A stretch of DNA of 64,000 bases from a bacterium. Its GTDB lineage: Bacteria; Patescibacteriota; Patescibacteriia; UBA9934. Under the pieces are notes generated by a model. That model was not told the origin of the DNA, made no database searches, and saw only the letters and a program-made list of their open reading frames with translations. The DNA lies in assembly GCA_043818555.1 (NCBI GenBank), contig JBDRFP010000002.1, positions 16,774 to 80,773 of the forward strand, read 5' to 3'. This document shows, in pieces, positions 3,450-59,889 of the stretch; within the stretch, counting starts at the first letter, position 1; each line of letters begins with the position of its first letter. Made by a program: the position numbers and the translations under genes.

Positions 3450-5516
<2,067 letters not shown>

Positions 5517-5520
5517 TCAG

Positions 5521-5700
5521 ATTTTTAACCTCCTGAGGAGTTCCCACCCCTTAACCCTGAAGGTTTAACCCCTGGGGTTAAACGTTTAGCGTTAAACCCT
5601 GAGGGTTAAGAAGCCTAAACCGCCAAGGTTGGCCCACCCTACTCTTAATCAACGGCCAAAACCAGGGTTTAACCCTGAAGGTTTAATTTGGAGATAAATA
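5521..5700. repeat. Cluster of TTAACCC / GGGTTAA-type palindromic repeat units (TTAACCCTGAAGGTTTAA and variants) directly upstream of ligA
   Basis: Visible repeated units ttaaccctgaaggtttaacccctggggttaaacg...gttaaaccctgagggttaag...agggtttaaccctgaaggtttaa. Confidence 0.7.
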
Positions 5701-5760
5701 TTTTCAAAAATAAATCCCCGACGTGAATCGGGTACGGGCTGATCAAGAACGATCGCTGGC

Positions 5761-5892
5761 CTTTGTGGCCGATCGGGCAAAATGTGCAACATTTGTAAAT
5801 CGTGACAATTGTGTAAACTTAGCAAAGATCCTCTATTTTTATAAAATGAAGTGTTGTAGATTGTGGCCGATCGGGCAAAATGTGCAACACAT
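5761..5892. repeat. Two 29-bp direct repeats TTGTGGCCGATCGGGCAAAATGTGCAACA (palindromic CCGATCGG core) about 100 bp apart, flanking an AT-rich TATAAAAT segment. Candidate operator pair in the ligA upstream region.
   Basis: Identical 29-mers at about 5763-5791 and 5862-5890. Confidence 0.6.
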
Positions 5893-6029
5893 GCAAAATA
5901 AATCCCCCGAAGTTAATCAGGAATGTGCTAATCACGAATGATCGCTGAGCTTGGCGATACCAACGCGGTGGATCGCTTACATGTCCAACATTGTTGCCGA
6001 TCATATGTAATGTTGGACAACAATCGCAT

Positions 6030-6058
6030 TATAAAACCGCCCCATCAGGAGCGGTCAG
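6030..6058 (-). terminator. Rho-independent terminator of small paralog 1 (ACCGC-TCCTGATGGG-GCGGT followed by TTTATAAT on the minus strand)
   Basis: GC stem followed by a T-run immediately after the stop at 6067. Confidence 0.6.
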
Positions 6059-6066
6059 CAGCGCCT

Positions 6067-6369
6067 TTACGACGCCATACGAGATTGAGCGCGCTTGGCC
6101 CATTCGTCCAGGCAGTCCTCGGCAAGAGCCAAATACCTGCCTGCTTCAACATCGCGCTCAACGATAGTGACTGTCTCCGGCATGGTGTTCATAATCGCCT
6201 TGCGGCGAACCACAGTAAGAACACCGAGTCTGCTGCGGAACGCCGGGCTTATGAGAACCTTTGCGACTCGTCCGCCAACATTTGCATACAGGACGAGCGC
6301 TTTCCTATTCGCATTCTGTGCCTGCACCAGAGCGTAGTCAATGAATACGCATTTTGCTGAACTTTTCAT
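6067..6369 (-). CDS. Small conserved protein, tandem paralog 1 (100 aa; MKSSAKC...LDEWAKRAQSRMAS)
   Basis: Start moved to the internal ATG preceded by GGAGG. Paralogous over its full length to 6516..6818. Has its own sigma70-like promoter and terminator. Confidence 0.7.
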   Translation of the reverse strand: MKSSAKCVFIDYALVQAQNANRKALVLYANVGGRVAKVLISPAFRSRLGVLTVVRRKAIMNTMPETVTIVERDVEAGRYLALAEDCLDEWAKRAQSRMAS

Positions 6370-6394
6370 TTTTACCTCCAGTAAACAAGAGTTA

Positions 6395-6423
6395 TGTATA
6401 TTATGTTTTTTGAATTTTGTCAA
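6395..6423 (-). promoter_or_regulatory. Sigma70-type promoter of paralog 1 (-35 TTGACA, 17-nt spacer, -10 TATACA), followed by SD GGAGG
   Basis: Minus-strand reading is TTGACAaaattcaaaaaacataaTATACA...GGAGGtaaaaATG. Confidence 0.55.
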
Positions 6424-6451
6424 CCTTTATGGCCCGAGCTCGGTCAAGATT

Positions 6452-6481
6452 GCAAAAAAATCCCCCGAACTTAGTCGGGGG
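6452..6481 (-). terminator. Rho-independent terminator of paralog 2 (CCCCCGA-CTAAGT-TCGGGGG plus a T7 run)
   Basis: Perfect 7-bp GC stem followed by TTTTTTT on the gene strand, right after the stop at 6516. Confidence 0.75.
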
Positions 6482-6515
6482 ACGCTCCACTCATGAGGAC
6501 AGGTCAACGGCGCCT

Positions 6516-6818
6516 TTACGACGCCATGCGGGATCGGGTGCGTTCGGCCCACTCGTCCAGGCTCGCGCCCGAAAGCGAGTAATGGATGCCGCGCCCCATG
6601 TGCCGAGCAACTACGGTTACACTTTCAGGCATGGTGTCCGCAATCGCCTTGCGAACGGCTGCATCCAACTCGCCAATTCGATGCCGGAAAGCGCTGCCAA
6701 TATTCACCTTAGCAGCACACTCATGAATTTCTATGTGAAGCACGAGATCGTTGCCGCTTGATCCCTTTACGATTACGCGCTCGAAAGCGACCAAATGACA
6801 CTTTGCAGAACATTTCAT
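6516..6818 (-). CDS. Small conserved protein, tandem paralog 2 (100 aa; MKCSAKC...LDEWAERTRSRMAS)
   Basis: SD AAGGGGG 5 nt upstream of the ATG. About 40% identical to paralog 1, with shared blocks TMPE(T/S)VT(I/V)V and LDEWA.R..SRMAS. Family not recognised. A weak Asp23/Gls24-like pattern is noted but not asserted. Confidence 0.7.
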   Translation of the reverse strand: MKCSAKCHLVAFERVIVKGSSGNDLVLHIEIHECAAKVNIGSAFRHRIGELDAAVRKAIADTMPESVTVVARHMGRGIHYSLSGASLDEWAERTRSRMAS

Positions 6819-6827
6819 ATTGCCCCC

Positions 6828-6980
6828 TTACCGGCCGCTTCGCTTGCTGCCAGAAGGCAGGCTCGACCTTGCCCTTGCCCAGTCCTCCACGAACCCGCAG
6901 GTTCGTCTTGATGCATCGCGACACCTGCGAGCGCGCTCCTCGAGCACGCAGGAAGTCAGGTTTATCAGGATCTCGATCAT
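6828..6980 (-). CDS. Candidate upstream small ORF (50 aa, MIEILINLTSCVLEERARRCRDASRRTCGFVEDWARARSSLPSGSKRSGR), Arg-rich with 3 Cys
   Basis: Canonical SD AAGGAGG 8 nt before its ATG. Its TAA stop overlaps the SD of paralog 2. Lies inside the roughly 200-nt GC-rich leader downstream of a TTGACA-N17-TATCTT promoter. Confidence 0.4.
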   Translation of the reverse strand: MIEILINLTSCVLEERARRCRDASRRTCGFVEDWARARSSLPSGSKRSGR

Positions 6981-7027
6981 TTTTCTCGCCTCCTTTTGGA
7001 TGATTTTGAGTGAACGAACAAGTGATA

Positions 7028-7056
7028 AAGATAACAAAACTTAGCCAAGTTGTCAA
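7028..7056 (-). promoter_or_regulatory. Sigma70-type promoter (-35 TTGACA, 17 nt, -10 TATCTT) driving the upstream ORF plus paralog 2
   Basis: Minus-strand reading is ggccTTGACAacttggctaagttttgtTATCTT. Confidence 0.5.
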
Positions 7057-7109
7057 GGCCAGACATCGTAATAGGCCATATTGGTCCAATGGGTCCTATT
7101 TCAACAGAA

Positions 7110-7140
7110 AACAGACCCCTCGGCCTGTTTATCCAGTCTA
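7110..7140 (-). terminator. Putative Rho-independent terminator downstream of the prepilin peptidase gene (AAACAGGCCGAGGGGTCTGTTT followed by a T-rich tract on the minus strand)
   Basis: Stem with one G-U pair, followed by TCTGTTGAAAT. Confidence 0.4.
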
Positions 7141-7173
7141 ATCAAGTTCCAAATCCAGCCCCATCCAGTCACC

Positions 7174-7968
7174 CTAACCAAAGAACCCCATATACCAATC
7201 CAGCAAATACTGCCCCCAAATCATAGTGATAATCGTCGCGCCTGCCATAAAGGTGCCAAACGGCACGTGGCTGTCGAGTTTGTATTTCTTAGTTGTGATC
7301 AAAATGATTCCGGCGATCGCTCCAAGAACGTAGGATAAGAACAGTGCGACGATTCCGAGTTCAATGCCAAGCAAAAATCCCATTAATAAGCCCATTCGAA
7401 TATCTCCACCGCCAATCCACTTTCCACCTGAAATCAAAAATTGAAAGGCAAAGAACCCGCCAAGCAAAAATCCGCCAGCAAGAATATTCATTGCGTCAGT
7501 CCCAAGGAAAATGTTAAATAGCAGTACAATGATCATCGCTGGGATGGAAAATCTGTCCAGAATGTATGAATAGCGCAGGTCGTAAACGAAAATGATGACT
7601 AGGAATACAGCCACTAATGCATCGCGAACGAAAAGCGTTACCCACTCGCCGCCTGCAACGAAAATCGGCAAGCCAAACCCCAGAGCTGCGCGCGCAAACA
7701 AAAGACCAAACAAAATTCCCATCGCAAGCTCCACGGCCGGATACTGCCACTCAATAACGCTTGAGCACTTCCTGCAACGTCCTTTTAGCGCAAAGTAGCT
7801 CCAAATTGGGATGAGGTCGAGTGTGGCTACCGGCACAAGGCACTGACGACATTTTGATCGCCCTGTGATTGGCTCGTTCGCGCCGGTTCGAAAAACCACA
7901 ACATTAATAAAGCTGCCAACAGCAATGCCGAGGACGCAGGCGAAGATTGTCCAAAGGATGATGTTCAT
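7174..7968 (-). CDS. pilD: Prepilin leader peptidase / N-methyltransferase (A24 family)
   Basis: 264 aa. N-terminal Cx2C...Cx2C zinc motif (CRQC...CRKC) and polytopic membrane topology typical of PilD. Confidence 0.85.
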   Translation of the reverse strand: MNIILWTIFACVLGIAVGSFINVVVFRTGANEPITGRSKCRQCLVPVATLDLIPIWSYFALKGRCRKCSSVIEWQYPAVELAMGILFGLLFARAALGFGLPIFVAGGEWVTLFVRDALVAVFLVIIFVYDLRYSYILDRFSIPAMIIVLLFNIFLGTDAMNILAGGFLLGGFFAFQFLISGGKWIGGGDIRMGLLMGFLLGIELGIVALFLSYVLGAIAGIILITTKKYKLDSHVPFGTFMAGATIITMIWGQYLLDWYMGFFG

Positions 7969-7979
7969 ATCGTAGGGCG

Positions 7980-8115
7980 TGGGATTTATTGTCGGGAAAC
8001 GATTGTTTATTATCGGCTAGCAAAGTTTATTGGCGATTTGCGAGGTTTATTGTCGGGAAGCTGGGGTTCGTTACAGACCTACAGACCGATAGATGAAGAT
8101 TATTGTCGGGAAGCT
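7980..8115. repeat. Array of five TTTATTGTCGG-like units at about 21-bp phasing between the pilin gene and pilD. Phased A/T tracts, predicted curved DNA.
   Basis: gatttattgtcggg / gtttattatcggc / gtttattggcg / gtttattgtcggg / gattattgtcggg at about 7986, 8007, 8028, 8048 and 8101. Confidence 0.65.
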
Positions 8116-8122
8116 CGACTGG

Positions 8123-8632
8123 CTACTCTGAAACCGTGAGCGCTGAACACTCGCCTGGGTCAATTCCTGATTCTGTAGCGCAATTAAGACCGCTCTCAAG
8201 TTCGATTAGCGGATTTGCGCGTTCAAGTTCAAATTGAATTCTGTACTCACCGTCGTCGCCAGCATAGCAATACGCATTGTTAGCACTGCCGCACGATGAC
8301 AATTTTTCCAGCCCCGCAGTCGGGGTCGATGGAACTACCAACATATAGACCGTCTGAGTCGCCTCAGGACACGAACCCGCAAACCCGGACTCCCCAAGAC
8401 AAATGGTAGATGCCTGCCCAAGCGCAATAGCCTCAGCCGTTTCCGGGTACATGTTTGTGTCGTTGAAATAAAGCTCCAGCGCAGCCTGAGTCTGTCTGAC
8501 ATCGGAAAGCCGAACAGCGTCGCGCGTGCGCGAGCGCGCTGTGGAGACCGCCACGACAGCCATTAGGCCAAGTAGACCTATGATTAGGCCTATAATTAGG
8601 ATTTCAATCTTAGTGATCCCTTGGTTGTTCAT
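8123..8632 (-). CDS. Type IV pilin-like protein (prepilin-type N-terminal cleavage/methylation domain)
   Basis: Leader MNNQG followed by ITKIEILIIGLIIGLL (Glu at +5) and a hydrophobic helix. 169 aa with C-terminal Cys residues. Confidence 0.75.
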   Translation of the reverse strand: MNNQGITKIEILIIGLIIGLLGLMAVVAVSTARSRTRDAVRLSDVRQTQAALELYFNDTNMYPETAEAIALGQASTICLGESGFAGSCPEATQTVYMLVVPSTPTAGLEKLSSCGSANNAYCYAGDDGEYRIQFELERANPLIELESGLNCATESGIDPGECSALTVSE

Positions 8633-8649
8633 AGATTTTCGGTAAACGA

Positions 8650-8745
8650 GTTTTATTGTCGGAAAACTTTGTTTATTGGCTGACGACGAAGTTTATTGCA
8701 CGGCCTACGGAGATTTATTACGAATAGTAGAATTTATTGTCAAAA
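8650..8745. repeat. Second array of five (G)TTTATTG units at about 20-21-bp phasing, upstream of the pilin gene
   Basis: gttttattgtcgg, gtttattggc, gtttattgcacgg, gatttattacg, aatttattgtc. Confidence 0.65.
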
Positions 8746-8760
8746 ACTACTGTACGCTGT

Positions 8761-9150
8761 CTACTGACTACTGTCTACTTTCGTAATCAATTTTTTCATC
8801 TTCGACACGGCCTCTTGCGGGACGAAATGGCCTACAAGCAAATATTCACTTGCGCCTGCCTGCAAGGAGCGTTCGATTTCAGAGCGATCTCCCATTTCAG
8901 CCAAAATAACAATTTTACTGTTCAAAATCGTCGGCATAGACCGCAACTTTCGTACCTCTTCGGAAATATCTGCCGCACAATCAGCATCAAGCAAAATAAT
9001 TGATGGACGAATTTTCACTGCCTTCCTCTCCCCTTCAGAAAGCGATTCAGCAACTTCCACCTCCCACCCGTCAAGTTCGAATTTTCGACCGTAAATTCCA
9101 GCAAGGTAAGGATCGCAGGCGACTATTAAGATAGATGGTGCGCTTGTCAT
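8761..9150 (-). CDS. Receiver-domain (CheY-like) protein, atypical
   Basis: 129 aa. Phospho-acceptor-like Asp in IILLDAD and a CheY-like beta-alpha pattern, but the conserved C-terminal Lys appears absent (YLLVGHFVP). Confidence 0.5.
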   Translation of the reverse strand: MTSAPSILIVACDPYLAGIYGRKFELDGWEVEVAESLSEGERKAVKIRPSIILLDADCAADISEEVRKLRSMPTILNSKIVILAEMGDRSEIERSLQAGASEYLLVGHFVPQEAVSKMKKLITKVDSSQ

Positions 9151-9173
9151 AGGTCGTATAGGTCCTATAAGAC

Positions 9174-10349
9174 CTATTTAGCGTTCTTCATCGCAAGCCC
9201 GGCCGCTACTGAAAACCTCGGACCGATTTCAGCCAAAACAGGCCTCAATCCTTCCGGAGCCGCAATTCGCGCCCATGGGTCTCCCAGGTAAACACTAATG
9301 TTCATAGCCTCTGTGATGATTGGGTCAATCTGAGGGAGCATGGCCGATCCTCCGGTCAAAATAATCTTCTCAACCGTTTGGTGCTGATGGAAATCCTGCT
9401 GGGCAAACAGTTCGAGTGAATACTTAATTTCGTGCAAAATCGGCTGAATTGCTTCTTTGAGAACAGGCGGAATCCCGCCCGGCGGAGGCGAAATTGCCAA
9501 ATCGAGCTTGGTTTGCTCGGCTTCAGACAACGAAATGCTCATTTGCTTTGCGATCATGTCGGTTACTGTTGCTCCTCCGGCCTTTATACTTCGGTGCAAG
9601 AACGGAAATCCTTTGTGAACGATTGTAATGTTTGTGCGCTCATAGCCGATGTCAACAATCATTAACCGCGACTTATCATTGCCGACCAACGATCGAATCA
9701 GCGCGAACGCCTCTGTTTCGAGCGAAACTAAATCAATCTTTGCCGCCTTGAATGCCGCAACATACTTTCCTACCATTTCCTTCGGAGCTCCGGAAACTAA
9801 AACGCGAATATGTTTACCGCCTTGAACTTTTGCAGGATACTCCTCTTTAATCTCCAGTCCCTCGTCTCCGGTTCCTTTGTCTTTTGCCTTATCGATCTTT
9901 TCAGCAAGCGGCGCCTTTGGCAGTAAATCCTTGTCGATTATGGTTGAATCCAGAATCATATCGCCAAGAGGCTTTGGCAGCAGCTTCTGAACCTGATTTT
10001 CAATCAGTGGCTTAAGGTCTTCCTTGTGGCTCTTTGGCTGTGGAATCGTAATTATTGCATGAAAAACCGAATGACTCGGGAGCGATGCGTTCGCCTTGTT
10101 CGACTTCATACCAGACTCCTGCATTATTCTGCGCAAAACCTCAGCGGCCATTTTTGGATCGTCCAAAAGAGCTCCGGCATGCTTTTCCGGATCTCTAAAT
10201 TCTGAGTAGCCATAAGTTACCAGGCGCAGGCGCTTGCCCTCCGGGACCAGCTCAACCATTTTGATTCCGCCGGCTCCAATGTCAACACCCATTAAACCGG
10301 GCGCTACCTTGTCTTTTTTTCCGAAGATTGCCATAAATGAGAGTATCAA
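9174..10349 (-). CDS. pilM: Type IV pilus assembly ATPase-fold protein PilM
   Basis: N-terminus LMGVDIGAGGIKMVEL matches the PilM/actin-like phosphate-1 motif. Located in the pilus module. The start may be at the second ATG (MAIFGKK). Confidence 0.75.
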   Translation of the reverse strand: MILSFMAIFGKKDKVAPGLMGVDIGAGGIKMVELVPEGKRLRLVTYGYSEFRDPEKHAGALLDDPKMAAEVLRRIMQESGMKSNKANASLPSHSVFHAIITIPQPKSHKEDLKPLIENQVQKLLPKPLGDMILDSTIIDKDLLPKAPLAEKIDKAKDKGTGDEGLEIKEEYPAKVQGGKHIRVLVSGAPKEMVGKYVAAFKAAKIDLVSLETEAFALIRSLVGNDKSRLMIVDIGYERTNITIVHKGFPFLHRSIKAGGATVTDMIAKQMSISLSEAEQTKLDLAISPPPGGIPPVLKEAIQPILHEIKYSLELFAQQDFHQHQTVEKIILTGGSAMLPQIDPIITEAMNISVYLGDPWARIAAPEGLRPVLAEIGPRFSVAAGLAMKNAK

Positions 10350-22071: not shown

Positions 22072-22116
22072 CAGGTTCAACCCTGAAGGTTGCTGCAACC
22101 TTCAGGGTTGAACCTG
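22072..22116. repeat. Perfect palindrome with 20-bp arms, CAGGTTCAACCCTGAAGGTT-GCTGC-AACCTTCAGGGTTGAACCTG, in the divergent lepA / 22181 intergenic region
   Basis: Member of the TTAACCCTGAAGGTT repeat family. Candidate operator or REP-like hairpin. Confidence 0.8.
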
Positions 22117-22180
22117 CACGCTTGACCAAATCGACCAAAACTGCTAACCTTGCCTCAGCGCCCTAACAAAGGAGACTTAA

Positions 22181-22711
22181 ATGTCGCACGAACCATTGAC
22201 TCTCGAAGCCGCCCGCGAGCGAGGACTGTACAAAATGCTCGCGTCTTCAATACGAGCGCTACAGGTAGGCAAGCATGAACTCAACCTAGGCTGGGAGACG
22301 GCCTACAATTTGGAAAGACGAGGTATCGTCTGCATCTTCCAACTGTGTGAGCTTACCCTAGATCAGTCATCCCCTATCTGCCATGCGCTAGATAGTGTGG
22401 AGATCGAATCAGCTCTAAAAAAAATTAGGCTAGGATACGGCATGAGCTTCAGCGACGAGCTCAAGCACGCTCTACTCAATGAGCCGACCCTGCTGGAGGG
22501 ACTAGACAGGGTGATCGAAGTCCTGACAGCTGAAGGAACGGCTAAGCGAACCGAACTCAATGCGCTCGACCGCGACCTAGGAGCGCTCAAGATGATCCAA
22601 CGGGAACTGACTGGCGAGGAAGAGCCAGAATCTATCGATAGAGCCAGCGATTCTGATCCGTCGCTCGATGACCTTCCGCAGGACATCTGCCCGAGAGCAA
22701 ATGGATCCTAG
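22181..22711 (+). CDS. Hypothetical protein (176 aa)
   Basis: SD AAAGGAGA upstream of the ATG. Bracketed by two copies of the AACCCTGAAGGTT palindrome. Confidence 0.6.
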   Translation: MSHEPLTLEAARERGLYKMLASSIRALQVGKHELNLGWETAYNLERRGIVCIFQLCELTLDQSSPICHALDSVEIESALKKIRLGYGMSFSDELKHALLNEPTLLEGLDRVIEVLTAEGTAKRTELNALDRDLGALKMIQRELTGEEEPESIDRASDSDPSLDDLPQDICPRANGS

Positions 22712-22752
22712 GGACAAACAACCCGCTTGCGCGATCGCAGGCGGGTTTCTTA

Positions 22753-22787
22753 TTAACCCTGAAGGTTGCTGCAACCTTCAGGGTTAA
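22753..22787. repeat. Palindrome TTAACCCTGAAGGTT-GCTGC-AACCTTCAGGGTTAA between convergent genes. Probable bidirectional terminator hairpin.
   Basis: 15-bp perfect arms around the same GCTGC loop as the 22072 copy. Confidence 0.75.
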
Positions 22788-46113: not shown

Positions 46114-46477
46114 GGTCCTCCAACTCAATGCTGGGGGATTTTGTGTTACCTTACAGCCTTAATCACTTTCGCGCGAAAGTATCTAAACTGCTTTCTCGCT
46201 TTCGTACGAAAGCGAGAAAAAGAAATGAGGTAATAAAATACCCCATAGTAGAACCTTGCGGTTCGCTACGGGGCCACACCGCCCGGGTGGGCGGCTGAGT
46301 TGATGGGGTCAGTCAGGGTCGCTAGGCTTATCCCAGCCTTCTCCCCACTCCTCCACCAGCTTTTTGAACATGCGATCTGATCGTTCAATCGCGACGTCCA
46401 ACTGCTTAAGTCTTGGACGCACGTAGAGCAGGTGGATCACGACGATTGTAATGCCACCGATCCCGCCTACTACAATC

Positions 46478-46612
46478 TTAACCCTCAGGGTTAAACCTTC
46501 AGGGTTAAACCTTCAGGGTTAAGAGTGTAATCTTGCTAAAATTAGCCAAGCCCATGCTTAAATGGTGGTCAAAATGTATTGTTAACCTTCAGGGTTAAAC
46601 CTTCAGGGTTAA
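46478..46612. repeat. Array of AACCTTCAGGGTTAA units (three tandem copies, a 53-bp unique insert, then two tandem copies) downstream of the HD-domain gene
   Basis: ccctcagggttaaaccttcagggttaaaccttcagggttaag...gttaaccttcagggttaaaccttcagggttaaaa. Confidence 0.8.
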
Positions 46613-59835: not shown

Positions 59836-59859
59836 CGAAGCAAAGCCGAGGGACAATTT

Positions 59860-59889
59860 AACCTTCAAGGTTCAGAAACCTTGAAGGTT
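59860..59889. repeat. Variant palindrome AACCTTCAAGGTT-CAGA-AACCTTGAAGGTT downstream of 59937..60284
   Basis: 13-bp arms. Member of the TTAACCCTGAAGGTT family. Confidence 0.7.

What the first reader, a model, noticed from the sequence alone, without database searches (positions are those of the whole stretch)
6030..7060. Tandem pair of strongly expressed 100-aa paralogs, one preceded by an Arg/Cys-rich 50-codon upstream ORF
Two 100-aa proteins (6067..6369 and 6516..6818) are about 40% identical and end in LDEWA(K/E)R.(Q/R)SRMAS. Each has a textbook sigma70 promoter or SD and a strong intrinsic terminator, which implies high expression. Paralog 2 is preceded by a roughly 200-nt GC-rich leader containing a 50-codon ORF (MIEILINLTSCVLEERARRCRDASRRTCGFVEDWARARSSLPSGSKRSGR). 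That ORF has a perfect AAGGAGG SD, and its stop overlaps the SD of paralog 2 (translational coupling). Paralog 1 lacks the upstream ORF. The family is unrecognised and could be a stress or ribosome-associated small protein.
Basis: partly seen in the sequence, partly recalled or inferred. Interest (0 to 1): 0.55.

Follow-up and report, generated by a model that had tools for sequence, protein, structure and literature searches.

The report
Tandem genes for small OB-fold proteins
Two neighbouring genes in an uncultured Patescibacteria genome encode old, diverged copies of a small unnamed protein that is confidently predicted to adopt the OB-fold typical of nucleic-acid binders. The short reading frame in front of one copy is present in the sequence but has no support as a conserved gene.

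Summary
Paralog 1 is 6369..6067 and paralog 2 is 6818..6516. Both are 100 aa and 45% identical (E 1e-27). Each has its own promoter-like site, SD and terminator. A 50-codon ORF (6980..6828) with AAGGAGG-N8-ATG ends inside paralog 2's SD.

The paralogs are real genes from an old duplication. Codon positions 1, 2 and 3 are 65, 68 and 37% identical, and in-frame codon scores look gene-like. They match nothing in Pfam, NCBIfam, PHROGs, PADLOC or PDB. A profile search of 1.84 billion proteins found about 40 distant relatives, which defines an unnamed family.

In related Patescibacteria, pseudopilin genes occupy the same peptidase–ligA slot, so the pair is a lineage-specific insertion.

The uORF is an orphan with atypical codon composition. 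It is probably translated and may unmask paralog 2's SD, but conservation cannot be tested. The 'stress or ribosome-associated' reading has no support. Interest is modest.

The parts
7028..7056 (-). Promoter-like site of the uORF/paralog 2 unit: TTGACA, 17 nt, TATCTT, with an extended TG
   Evidence: 10 of 12 matches; sequence.
6989..6995 (-). Shine-Dalgarno AAGGAGG of the upstream ORF, 8 nt before its ATG
   Evidence: AAGGAGG-N8-ATG occurs twice in the window against 0.2 expected.
6828..6980 (-). Upstream 50-codon ORF (MIEILINLTSCVLEERARRCRDASRRTCGFVEDWARARSSLPSGSKRSGR). It is probably translated, but its coding status as a functional peptide is unproven.
   Evidence: ORF. Annotated by NCBI as ABIA47_00285. 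Orphan in 5.8 billion proteins. Codon score -0.075 and GC2 0.62, both atypical. An ORF this long arises in 4.3% of leader shuffles.
6822..6862 (-). Predicted hairpin that pairs the 3' part of the uORF (GCCUGCCUUCUGG) with paralog 2's SD (CCGGUAAGGGGGC). It is a candidate SD-masking structure that would be opened by ribosomes translating the uORF.
   Evidence: MFE -21.5 kcal/mol, 41% of the ensemble. The z-score is only -1.0 against shuffles, so this is an inference.
6516..6818 (-). Paralog 2: a 100-aa basic OB-fold protein (ABIA47_00280)
   Evidence: In-frame codon score 0.17. Scores 71.6 bits against a family HMM built without the window sequences. AlphaFold2 pLDDT 96.5.
6505..6528 (-). Small conserved hairpin (A)UGGCGUC-GUAAA-GGCGCC(GU) with paralog 2's UAA stop codon in the loop
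   Evidence: The 24 nt after the stop are 79% identical between the paralogs.
6451..6483 (-). Intrinsic terminator of paralog 2 (9-bp stem, 6 G-C pairs, T7 tract)
6395..6423 (-). Promoter-like site of paralog 1: TTGACA, 17 nt, TATACA
   Evidence: Read. The scanner did not report it because the -10 element lacks the final T.
6374..6379 (-). Shine-Dalgarno GGAGGT of paralog 1, in an unstructured A+U-rich leader
   Evidence: Local fold of only -3.6 kcal/mol.
6067..6369 (-). Paralog 1: a 100-aa basic OB-fold protein (ABIA47_00275)
   Evidence: In-frame codon score 0.23. Scores 81.8 bits against a family HMM built without the window sequences.
6060..6076 (-). The same stop-codon hairpin in paralog 1 (GGCGUC-GUAAA-GGCGCU)
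6028..6056 (-). Terminator-like hairpin of paralog 1: GACCGCUCC-UGAU-GGGGCGGUU followed by UUUAUAAU
5690..6027 (.). Non-coding tail of the island. It holds an 11-bp perfect hairpin (6023..5981), two orphan copies of paralog 2's terminator module (5896-5921, 5707-5732) and a 28-nt exact repeat (5763, 5861).
   Evidence: No protein-level relic of the family was found there.

Best explanation
The locus is a small island of about 1.5 kb that is specific to this lineage. It sits between the prepilin peptidase gene and ligA of a Patescibacteria genome.

It carries two anciently duplicated, separately transcribed genes for small basic proteins. These belong to an unnamed, rare family that adopts an OB-fold (beta1-beta2-beta3-helix-beta4-beta5) plus a C-terminal helix.

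Inferred: the proteins bind single-stranded nucleic acid (DNA or RNA), probably as homo- or heterodimers. One relative is a fusion of two such domains, which fits dimerisation.

The two copies are wired differently. Paralog 1 has a short unstructured leader with a strong SD. Paralog 2 lies behind a G+C-rich leader of about 200 nt whose 50-codon ORF is probably translated. Because that ORF ends inside paralog 2's SD and its 3' part can base-pair with the SD, its translation probably sets how much paralog 2 is made (translational coupling). The uORF peptide itself is more likely incidental than a conserved functional protein.

Shown: paralogy, purifying selection, family membership, predicted fold, insertion into a conserved syntenic slot, and the sequence anatomy of the signals. 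Inferred: ligand, oligomeric state, coupling and expression level.
For: - **Paralogy and selection.** The copies are 45% identical (E 1e-27). Codon positions 1, 2 and 3 are 65, 68 and 37% identical, with pS 0.73 (saturated) and pN 0.34. In-frame codon scores are 0.23 and 0.17, against 0.30 +/- 0.09 for genes, and all other frames are negative.
- **Family.** About 40 relatives have E <= 1e-3 among 1.84 billion representatives. An HMM built without the window sequences scores the two ORFs at 81.8 and 71.6 bits. No curated family matches.
- **Charge.** Both proteins are net basic, by residue count from the sequences.
- **Fused double-domain relative.** P0010 matches in two stretches.
- **Insertion.** Five related Patescibacteria genomes have prepilin peptidase, then 3-5 pseudopilin genes, then ligA. 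None of the ligA loci holds a family member. The island's G+C is 54-62%, against 48.6% for the window.
- **Signals.**
Against: - **A conserved residue is missing.** The Trp conserved on beta3 of most relatives (WiDRFFK) is Val in both window copies.
- **Mixed contexts.** The genomic settings of relatives are heterogeneous and give no single functional theme.
- **Weak structural support in the leader.** Neither the whole leader nor the SD-masking hairpin folds better than shuffles (z -1.0).
- **The uORF looks non-coding by composition.** Its codon score falls below 99.3% of real 50-codon gene windows, and another frame scores higher.
- **Promoter consensus.** It is not established for Patescibacteria, so expression level is unknown.
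Confidence: 0.5

Rival explanations
1. The two genes are orphan copies of the small subunit of a two-gene accessory module carried by mobile elements and prophages (large variable protein followed by a small OB-fold protein). Here they would work without the large partner, for example as an antidote, immunity or decoy factor against such modules carried by invading elements or neighbours.
For: - In 20 or more loci, the long-form relatives lie directly downstream, on the same strand, of a large unknown protein. These fall into clusters of about 400, 455 and 650 aa.
- Those loci include McrB/McrC-like, MkoC-like, DinG-like and AbiJ-like genes, integrases, an XRE regulator, Bro-N/ANT, VapE, DUF2800 and ImmA-like peptidase.
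- Tandem orphan copies without the large partner, as seen here, are a pattern known for immunity genes (own knowledge).
- The window holds no homologue of any partner.
Against: - The three partner clusters show no detectable homology to each other (hhalign probability below 2%). A conserved antidote to variable toxins is therefore not the obvious reading.
- The family itself has no PADLOC hit.
- The window copies belong to the short form, whose other members stand alone in ordinary chromosomal settings.
- No toxicity or defence data exist.
Confidence: 0.15
2. The 50-codon ORF encodes a functional Arg/Cys-rich microprotein that works together with paralog 2, giving a three-component locus.
For: - It has a strong SD at the right spacing, directly downstream of a promoter-like site.
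- Its stop is tightly coupled to paralog 2's start.
- NCBI's pipeline called it a gene.
- An ORF this long arises in only 4.3% of leader shuffles.
Against: - Its codon score of -0.075 is lower than 99.3% of real gene windows, and GC2 is 0.62 against 0.39 +/- 0.03 in genes.
- Four of the six frames in this G+C-rich stretch carry at most one stop.
- It has no homologue among 5.8 billion proteins.
- No comparable ORF was seen upstream in the gene maps of the other family loci.
- Paralog 1 manages without one.
Confidence: 0.15
3. The leader of about 200 nt is a structured cis-regulatory RNA (riboswitch, protein-binding leader or attenuator), and the ORF within it is incidental.
For: - The leader is long and G+C-rich, and it is present before only one of the two paralogs.
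- The SD is paired in the minimum-energy fold.
- An RNA-binding OB-fold protein could plausibly autoregulate through its own leader (inference).
Against: - There is no Rfam match even at E <= 1.
- Folding energy is no better than shuffles (z -1.04 for the whole leader; z -0.9 to -1.0 for sub-regions).
- No homologous leaders are available to test covariation.
Confidence: 0.08
4. One reading: the paralogs are stress-induced or ribosome-associated small proteins, of the hibernation-factor type.
For: - The proteins are small and basic, and the expression signals look strong.
Against: - There is no match to any ribosome-associated family in Pfam or NCBIfam.
- The family is very rare and absent from related Patescibacteria, unlike core translation factors.
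- The contexts of relatives are prophage and mobile-element regions.
Confidence: 0.04
5. The island is a decaying remnant of horizontally acquired DNA with no current function.
For: - G+C content is atypical.
- Orphan terminator copies and local repeats lie downstream.
- No partner gene is present, and the family is absent from relatives.
Against: - Both 100-codon frames are intact, and the two proteins align without any gap.
- Third codon positions are saturated, while first and second positions stay 65-68% identical. This indicates long-term purifying selection on both copies.
- SDs and terminators are intact.
Confidence: 0.08

Closest known systems
OB-fold nucleic-acid-binding domains: the OB domain of ATP/NAD DNA ligases, the tRNA-binding domain of MetRS-C/CsaA/Trbp111, and SSB-like PrgE and LEF-3
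The unnamed family of about 40 metagenomic and prophage proteins found here (for example P0004, P0016, P0031, P0036 and P0044)
   Same: Homology is significant (E 1e-10 to 1e-3 from the two-sequence profile; 72-82 bits in the reverse direction). The shared conserved core includes F44, P64 and W90.
   Different: Most relatives are 125-135 aa, with an insertion of about 25 residues (G.GW) in the beta1-beta2 loop, and they follow a large unknown protein. The window copies are the short form, stand alone, and are tandemly duplicated. They share at most 33% identity with any relative.
Translational coupling through an upstream ORF that unmasks a sequestered ribosome-binding site, as described for ribosomal-protein operons and RNA-phage genes (own knowledge, not tested here)
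   Same: The upstream ORF stops inside the downstream SD, 9 nt before the start codon. In the predicted fold the downstream SD pairs with sequence inside the upstream ORF.
   Different: The upstream ORF has no homologues and does not look like a typical gene. The masking hairpin is not statistically distinguishable from shuffled sequence, and no expression data exist.

Membership tests
OB-fold (structural superfold) | A five-stranded barrel with the order beta1-beta2-beta3-helix-beta4-beta5 | tested here: met
OB-fold (structural superfold) | Binding of oligonucleotide or oligosaccharide on the beta2-beta3 face | not testable with these tools
   Only indirect hints are available: net basic charge and conserved F44-R/K45 at the end of beta3.
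Bacterial SSB (Pfam PF00436) | Sequence match to the SSB profile | tested here: not met
   No Pfam or NCBIfam hit for either paralog or for 10 relatives.
tRNA-binding domain CsaA/Trbp111/MetRS-C (Pfam PF01588) | Sequence match to the tRNA_bind profile | tested here: not met
Ribosome hibernation/modulation factors (HPF/RaiA) or other ribosome-associated small proteins | Sequence match to the family profile | tested here: not met
   No hit in Pfam or NCBIfam.
TsaD/Kae1 N-terminal region | Significant sequence similarity that is retained at profile level | tested here: not met
   A single-sequence phmmer hit had E 0.002 over 58 residues, with a per-domain E-value of 0.21. It disappears when the family profile is used.
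Known anti-phage defence proteins (PADLOC-DB) | Match to a PADLOC model | tested here: not met
   Neither paralog gave a significant PADLOC hit (best E 0.017). The large partners of relatives also lack convincing hits, although their neighbours match MkoC, AbiJ and capP models.
Phage protein families (PHROGs) | Match to a PHROG model | tested here: not met
   One of 39 family members hit a PHROG, at E 0.004. There were no tblastn matches in 50,697 phage or 72,556 plasmid records.
Regulatory leader peptide or coupled upstream ORF | Conservation of the ORF (frame, length, key codons) in related loci | not testable with these tools
   No related locus was found in any collection searched.
Regulatory leader peptide or coupled upstream ORF | The ORF has a functional ribosome-binding site and overlaps or abuts the downstream initiation region | tested here: met
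   AAGGAGG-N8-ATG is present, and the stop UAA is part of UAAGGGGG, 9 nt before the downstream ATG. This is sequence evidence only.
Known cis-regulatory RNA (Rfam) | Covariance-model match | tested here: not met
   No relevant match at E <= 1 in 5400-7300.

The most novel reading that the evidence does not exclude
The family may be the conserved small nucleic-acid-sensing or nucleic-acid-binding subunit of an undescribed class of two-gene prophage or defence-island modules, made of a large, highly variable effector followed by a small OB-fold protein. Under this reading, the Patescibacteria pair represents domesticated stand-alone copies. One of them would be under unusual uORF-coupled translational control, and both would carry a conserved hairpin that places the stop codon in its loop.
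Probability: 0.12. Interest if true: 0.6.

Novelty: new variant of a known kind. Interest (0 to 1): 0.3.

Why it matters
If correct, this adds a confidently modelled but unnamed OB-fold family to the catalogue of small nucleic-acid-binding proteins. It also flags a recurrent gene pair (large unknown protein plus small OB-fold protein) in prophage accessory regions that no defence or phage database yet lists.

For Patescibacteria it shows a lineage-specific replacement of pseudopilin genes inside the conserved pilus–ligA block. The uORF arrangement would be a compact natural example of paralog-specific translational control.

None of this overturns current understanding. Its value is mainly as a lead for annotation and for defence-system screens.

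Tried and rejected
- **uORF as a relic of a third paralog.** The peptide stretch EDWARARSS resembles DEWAERTRS by eye, so I tested this idea. Local DNA alignment of the leader against both paralogs is no better than shuffles, and tblastn and HMM searches find nothing. Rejected.
- **uORF as the remnant 3' end of a 'large partner' gene.** It shows no similarity to any partner protein. Rejected.
- **Relics of further gene copies in 5505-6066.** Only the terminator module is repeated, and ORFs crossing the repeats read them in different frames. Rejected.
- **TsaD-like N-terminal domain**. The hit is lost at profile level. Rejected.
- **Match to the de novo designed protein Foldit3** (E 2e-4). Treated as compositional and not pursued.
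- **P0003** (974 aa, 15 matched stretches). It is a 65-aa tandem-repeat protein that matches only the RRxAIxxTMP stretch. Excluded.
- **Close relatives of the locus.** Searched for in species-representative genomes, IMG/VR, phage and plasmid records, and the protein collections. None were found.
- **Structured-RNA reading of the leader.** No Rfam hit and no excess folding energy.
- **Foldseek against AFDB50.** The library was unavailable.
- **Homology among the three partner clusters.** None detected.
- **Stop-codon hairpin as a family-wide feature.** It is not.
Full report
**1. Observation**

The features lie on the minus strand.

- Paralog 1 is 6369..6067 and paralog 2 is 6818..6516. Each is 100 aa.
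- They align without gaps at 45% identity (BLASTP E 1e-27) and share the C-terminal LDEWA(K/E)R.(Q/R)SRMAS.
- A promoter-like site (TTGACA, 17 nt, TATCTT, with an extended TG; 7056..7028) precedes a leader of about 200 nt.
- In that leader, AAGGAGG lies 8 nt before the ATG at 6980.
- AAGGAGG-N8-ATG occurs twice in the window against 0.2 expected.
- The ORF's TAA (6830..6828) forms the start of UAAGGGGG, the SD of paralog 2.
- Paralog 2 ends with a strong terminator (6483..6451).
- Paralog 1 has TTGACA, 17 nt, TATACA (6423..6395), GGAGGT (6379..6374), and a 9-bp terminator hairpin followed by UUUAUAAU (6056..6028).
- NCBI annotates all three ORFs as hypothetical proteins ABIA47_00275, 00280 and 00285 of a 'bacterium' MAG.

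The small corrections are the strand, 45% rather than 40% identity, and a less than textbook -10 element for paralog 1.

**2. Are the paralogs real genes?**

Yes.

- First, second and third codon positions are 65, 68 and 37% identical.
- Synonymous differences are saturated (pS 0.73), while pN is 0.34. This is an old duplication with both copies kept under purifying selection.
- In-frame codon-usage scores are 0.23 and 0.17, within the range of the window's long genes (0.30 +/- 0.09). All five other frames are negative.

**3. What are they?**

No curated library recognises them.

- Pfam, NCBIfam, PHROGs and PADLOC give nothing significant.
- A weak phmmer hit to the N-terminus of TsaD (E 0.002) disappears when a family profile is used.
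- The word-indexed search of 5.8 billion proteins returns only the query itself.

A profile of the two paralogs, run with HMMER against 1.84 billion cluster representatives, finds about 40 relatives of 92-152 aa with E 1e-10 to 1e-3. One spurious repeat protein, P0003, was excluded.

- The 39-sequence alignment shows a conserved core: an N-terminal A.C..v.Y, then LiL.vev.G...vWiDrfFK..lGrLT.kRR.AI..tMP..v.V.E....G..YY....dL..W..R.
- F44 is nearly invariant, and P64 and W90 are invariant.
- An HMM built without the window sequences scores the two window ORFs at 81.8 and 71.6 bits, so membership is not circular.
- Ten relatives have no Pfam domain. Only 1 of 39 touches a PHROG, weakly.
- tblastn finds nothing in 50,697 phage or 72,556 plasmid records.

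**4. Fold**

With only the two paralogs as alignment, AlphaFold2 was uncertain (pLDDT 75). With the 39-sequence alignment it is very confident (pLDDT 96.5, pTM 0.85, all five models at 95.5 or above).

- The model has strands 2-17, 20-31 and 34-39, helices 41-48 and 53-61, strands 66-74 and 77-82, and helix 84-99.
- This is the OB-fold order with an added C-terminal helix.
- Foldseek against PDB and BFVD finds nothing below E 0.01, and the weak hits are again largely OB proteins.
- AFDB50 was not available.

The proteins are therefore a new sequence family within a very well-known fold. Both are net basic. In the long relatives, the insertion of about 25 residues falls in the beta1-beta2 loop.

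**5. Genomic context of relatives**

I fetched 50 loci and clustered their neighbours.

*Long form (about 125-135 aa).* These members lie almost always directly downstream, on the same strand, of a large protein of unknown function.

- The large proteins fall into clusters of about 400, 455 and 650 aa.
- The three clusters have no Pfam, PHROG, PADLOC or PDB match.
- They show no detectable homology to each other (hhalign probability below 2%).
- The surrounding genes are typical of prophage accessory regions and defence islands. They include McrB-like AAA_5 plus LlaJI/McrC-like, MkoC-like, DinG-type helicase, AbiJ-like, serine and tyrosine integrases, XRE regulators, Bro-N/ANT antirepressor, VapE-like, DUF2800 nuclease, PolA and ImmA/IrrE-type peptidase. 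IS21 transposases are also present.

*Short form (100-119 aa, like the window copies).* These stand alone in unrelated chromosomal settings, next to TfoX_N, a two-component system, or a GAF protein.

One relative, P0010, is a fusion of two family domains, which suggests the unit works as a dimer. The window contains no homologue of any large partner and no third family copy.

**6. Host and locus history**

LigA of the window is at most 54% identical to LigA of Saccharibacteria, Parcubacteria, Uhrbacteria and other Patescibacteria MAGs.

- In five of those genomes the order prepilin peptidase … ligA is conserved, and the interval holds three to five pseudopilin genes.
- In the window the same interval (5505-7173) holds the uORF, the two paralogs and a non-coding tail.
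- None of the related ligA loci encodes a family member.
- The island's G+C (54-62%) exceeds the window mean of 48.6%.

The pair is therefore a lineage-specific acquisition followed by an old local duplication. The duplicated unit runs from about the start codon to about 27 nt past the stop.

**7. The upstream ORF**

*In favour of translation*

- The SD and spacing are strong, and the ORF sits at the 5' end of a transcription-unit-like stretch.
- An ATG ORF of at least 50 codons occurs in only 4.3% of dinucleotide shuffles of the leader.
- NCBI called it a gene.

*Against a conventional functional gene*

- Its codon score is -0.075, below 99.3% of 50-codon windows from real genes, and another frame scores higher.
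- GC by codon position is 0.52, 0.62 and 0.72, against 0.58, 0.39 and 0.52 in genes.
- Two of the three forward frames and one reverse frame of the leader carry at most one stop.
- It has no homologue among 5.8 billion proteins.
- It resembles neither the paralogs nor the partner proteins.

*RNA structure*

- The leader has no Rfam match and no excess folding energy (z -1.04).
- Locally, the minimum-energy fold pairs GCCUGCCUUCUGG (uORF codons about 40-44) with CCGGUAAGGGGGC (paralog 2's SD). The energy is -21.5 kcal/mol and the fold makes up 41% of the ensemble, but z is only -1.0.
- Paralog 1's SD sits in an unstructured leader (-3.6 kcal/mol).

The most economical reading is a translated upstream ORF that acts in cis, coupling paralog 2's initiation to its own translation. 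This remains an inference. No related locus was found in species-representative genomes, IMG/VR or the protein collections.

**8. An unexplained detail**

- The 24 nt after the two stop codons are 79% identical, although synonymous sites are saturated.
- Together with the last codons, they form a 6-8 bp hairpin, GGCGUC-GUAAA-GGCGCY, that places the UAA stop in its loop in both genes.
- The one difference on the 3' arm (C to U) keeps pairing.
- Relatives do not share this feature.
- It may be an mRNA-stability or termination element, or a binding site. I could not test this.

**9. Verdict**

The finding is real.

- The 'unrecognised family' claim is right.
- The 'stress or ribosome-associated' idea has no support.
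- The best-supported description is a tandem pair of small, basic OB-fold proteins from a rare unnamed family, probably nucleic-acid binders acting as dimers. They were inserted into the pilus–ligA block of a Patescibacteria genome.
- One copy is behind a probably translated coupling ORF.
- The function remains inferred from the fold only.

This is a new sequence family of a very familiar structural kind. I rate the interest as modest (0.3). The more novel possibility is that the family is the small subunit of an undescribed class of prophage or defence-island gene pairs. I give that about 0.12 probability.

Noticed in passing
window 5551-5686, 22094-22787, 46477-46612, 59857-59874: A dispersed palindromic repeat, TTAACCCTGAAGGTTTAA, gives 14 matches with up to 3 mismatches against 0.06 expected. 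It sits in clusters that look intergenic, including just upstream of ligA. It looks like a REP-like element of this genome.
   Followed up: partly
window 5690-6027: The non-coding tail downstream of paralog 1 holds repeats found only here. There is a 28-nt exact repeat, TTGTGGCCGATCGGGCAAAATGTGCAAC, at 5763 and 5861, with a GCCGATCGGC palindrome core. There are two orphan copies of paralog 2's terminator module (5707-5732, 5896-5921), each preceded by CAGCGATC(A/G)TTC(G/T)TGAT. There is also an 11-bp perfect hairpin at 6023-5981. These could be small RNA genes, operator sites or scars of rearrangement.
   Followed up: partly
window 6505-6528 and 6060-6076: Both paralogs carry a conserved hairpin with the UAA stop codon in its loop. 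The 24 nt after the stop are 79% identical, although synonymous sites are saturated.
   Followed up: partly
L008, L009, L010, L011, L026 (about 7300-10000 in each) versus window 5505-7173: Related Patescibacteria carry 3-5 pseudopilin genes between the prepilin peptidase gene and ligA. This genome has the OB-fold island in that slot instead, and a pilin-like gene (8123-8632) lies on the other side of the peptidase gene.
   Followed up: yes
L027-L050, e.g. L036 5865-8369, L029 3194-4913, L047 5888-8303, L007 1143-2966: A recurrent gene pair of a large unknown protein (about 400, 455 or 650 aa; three clusters with no detectable homology to each other) followed by the small OB-fold protein. It occurs in prophage and defence-island regions next to McrB/McrC-like, MkoC-like, AbiJ-like, integrase, Bro-N/ANT, VapE, DUF2800 and ImmA-like genes.
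   Followed up: partly
P0010 (278 aa, metagenomic): A natural fusion of two domains of the family in one polypeptide (two matched stretches). It parallels the unfused tandem pair in the window.
   Followed up: no
L054 7417-7875 and L057 3-392: Two short-form relatives (P0036, P0042) are each preceded by a conserved protein of about 150 aa with a signal-peptide-like N-terminus and the shared motif RLTDMA..NMT.ADLQK.LDAG..MYQIAAEHGVTYAT. It has no Pfam hit on record.
   Followed up: no
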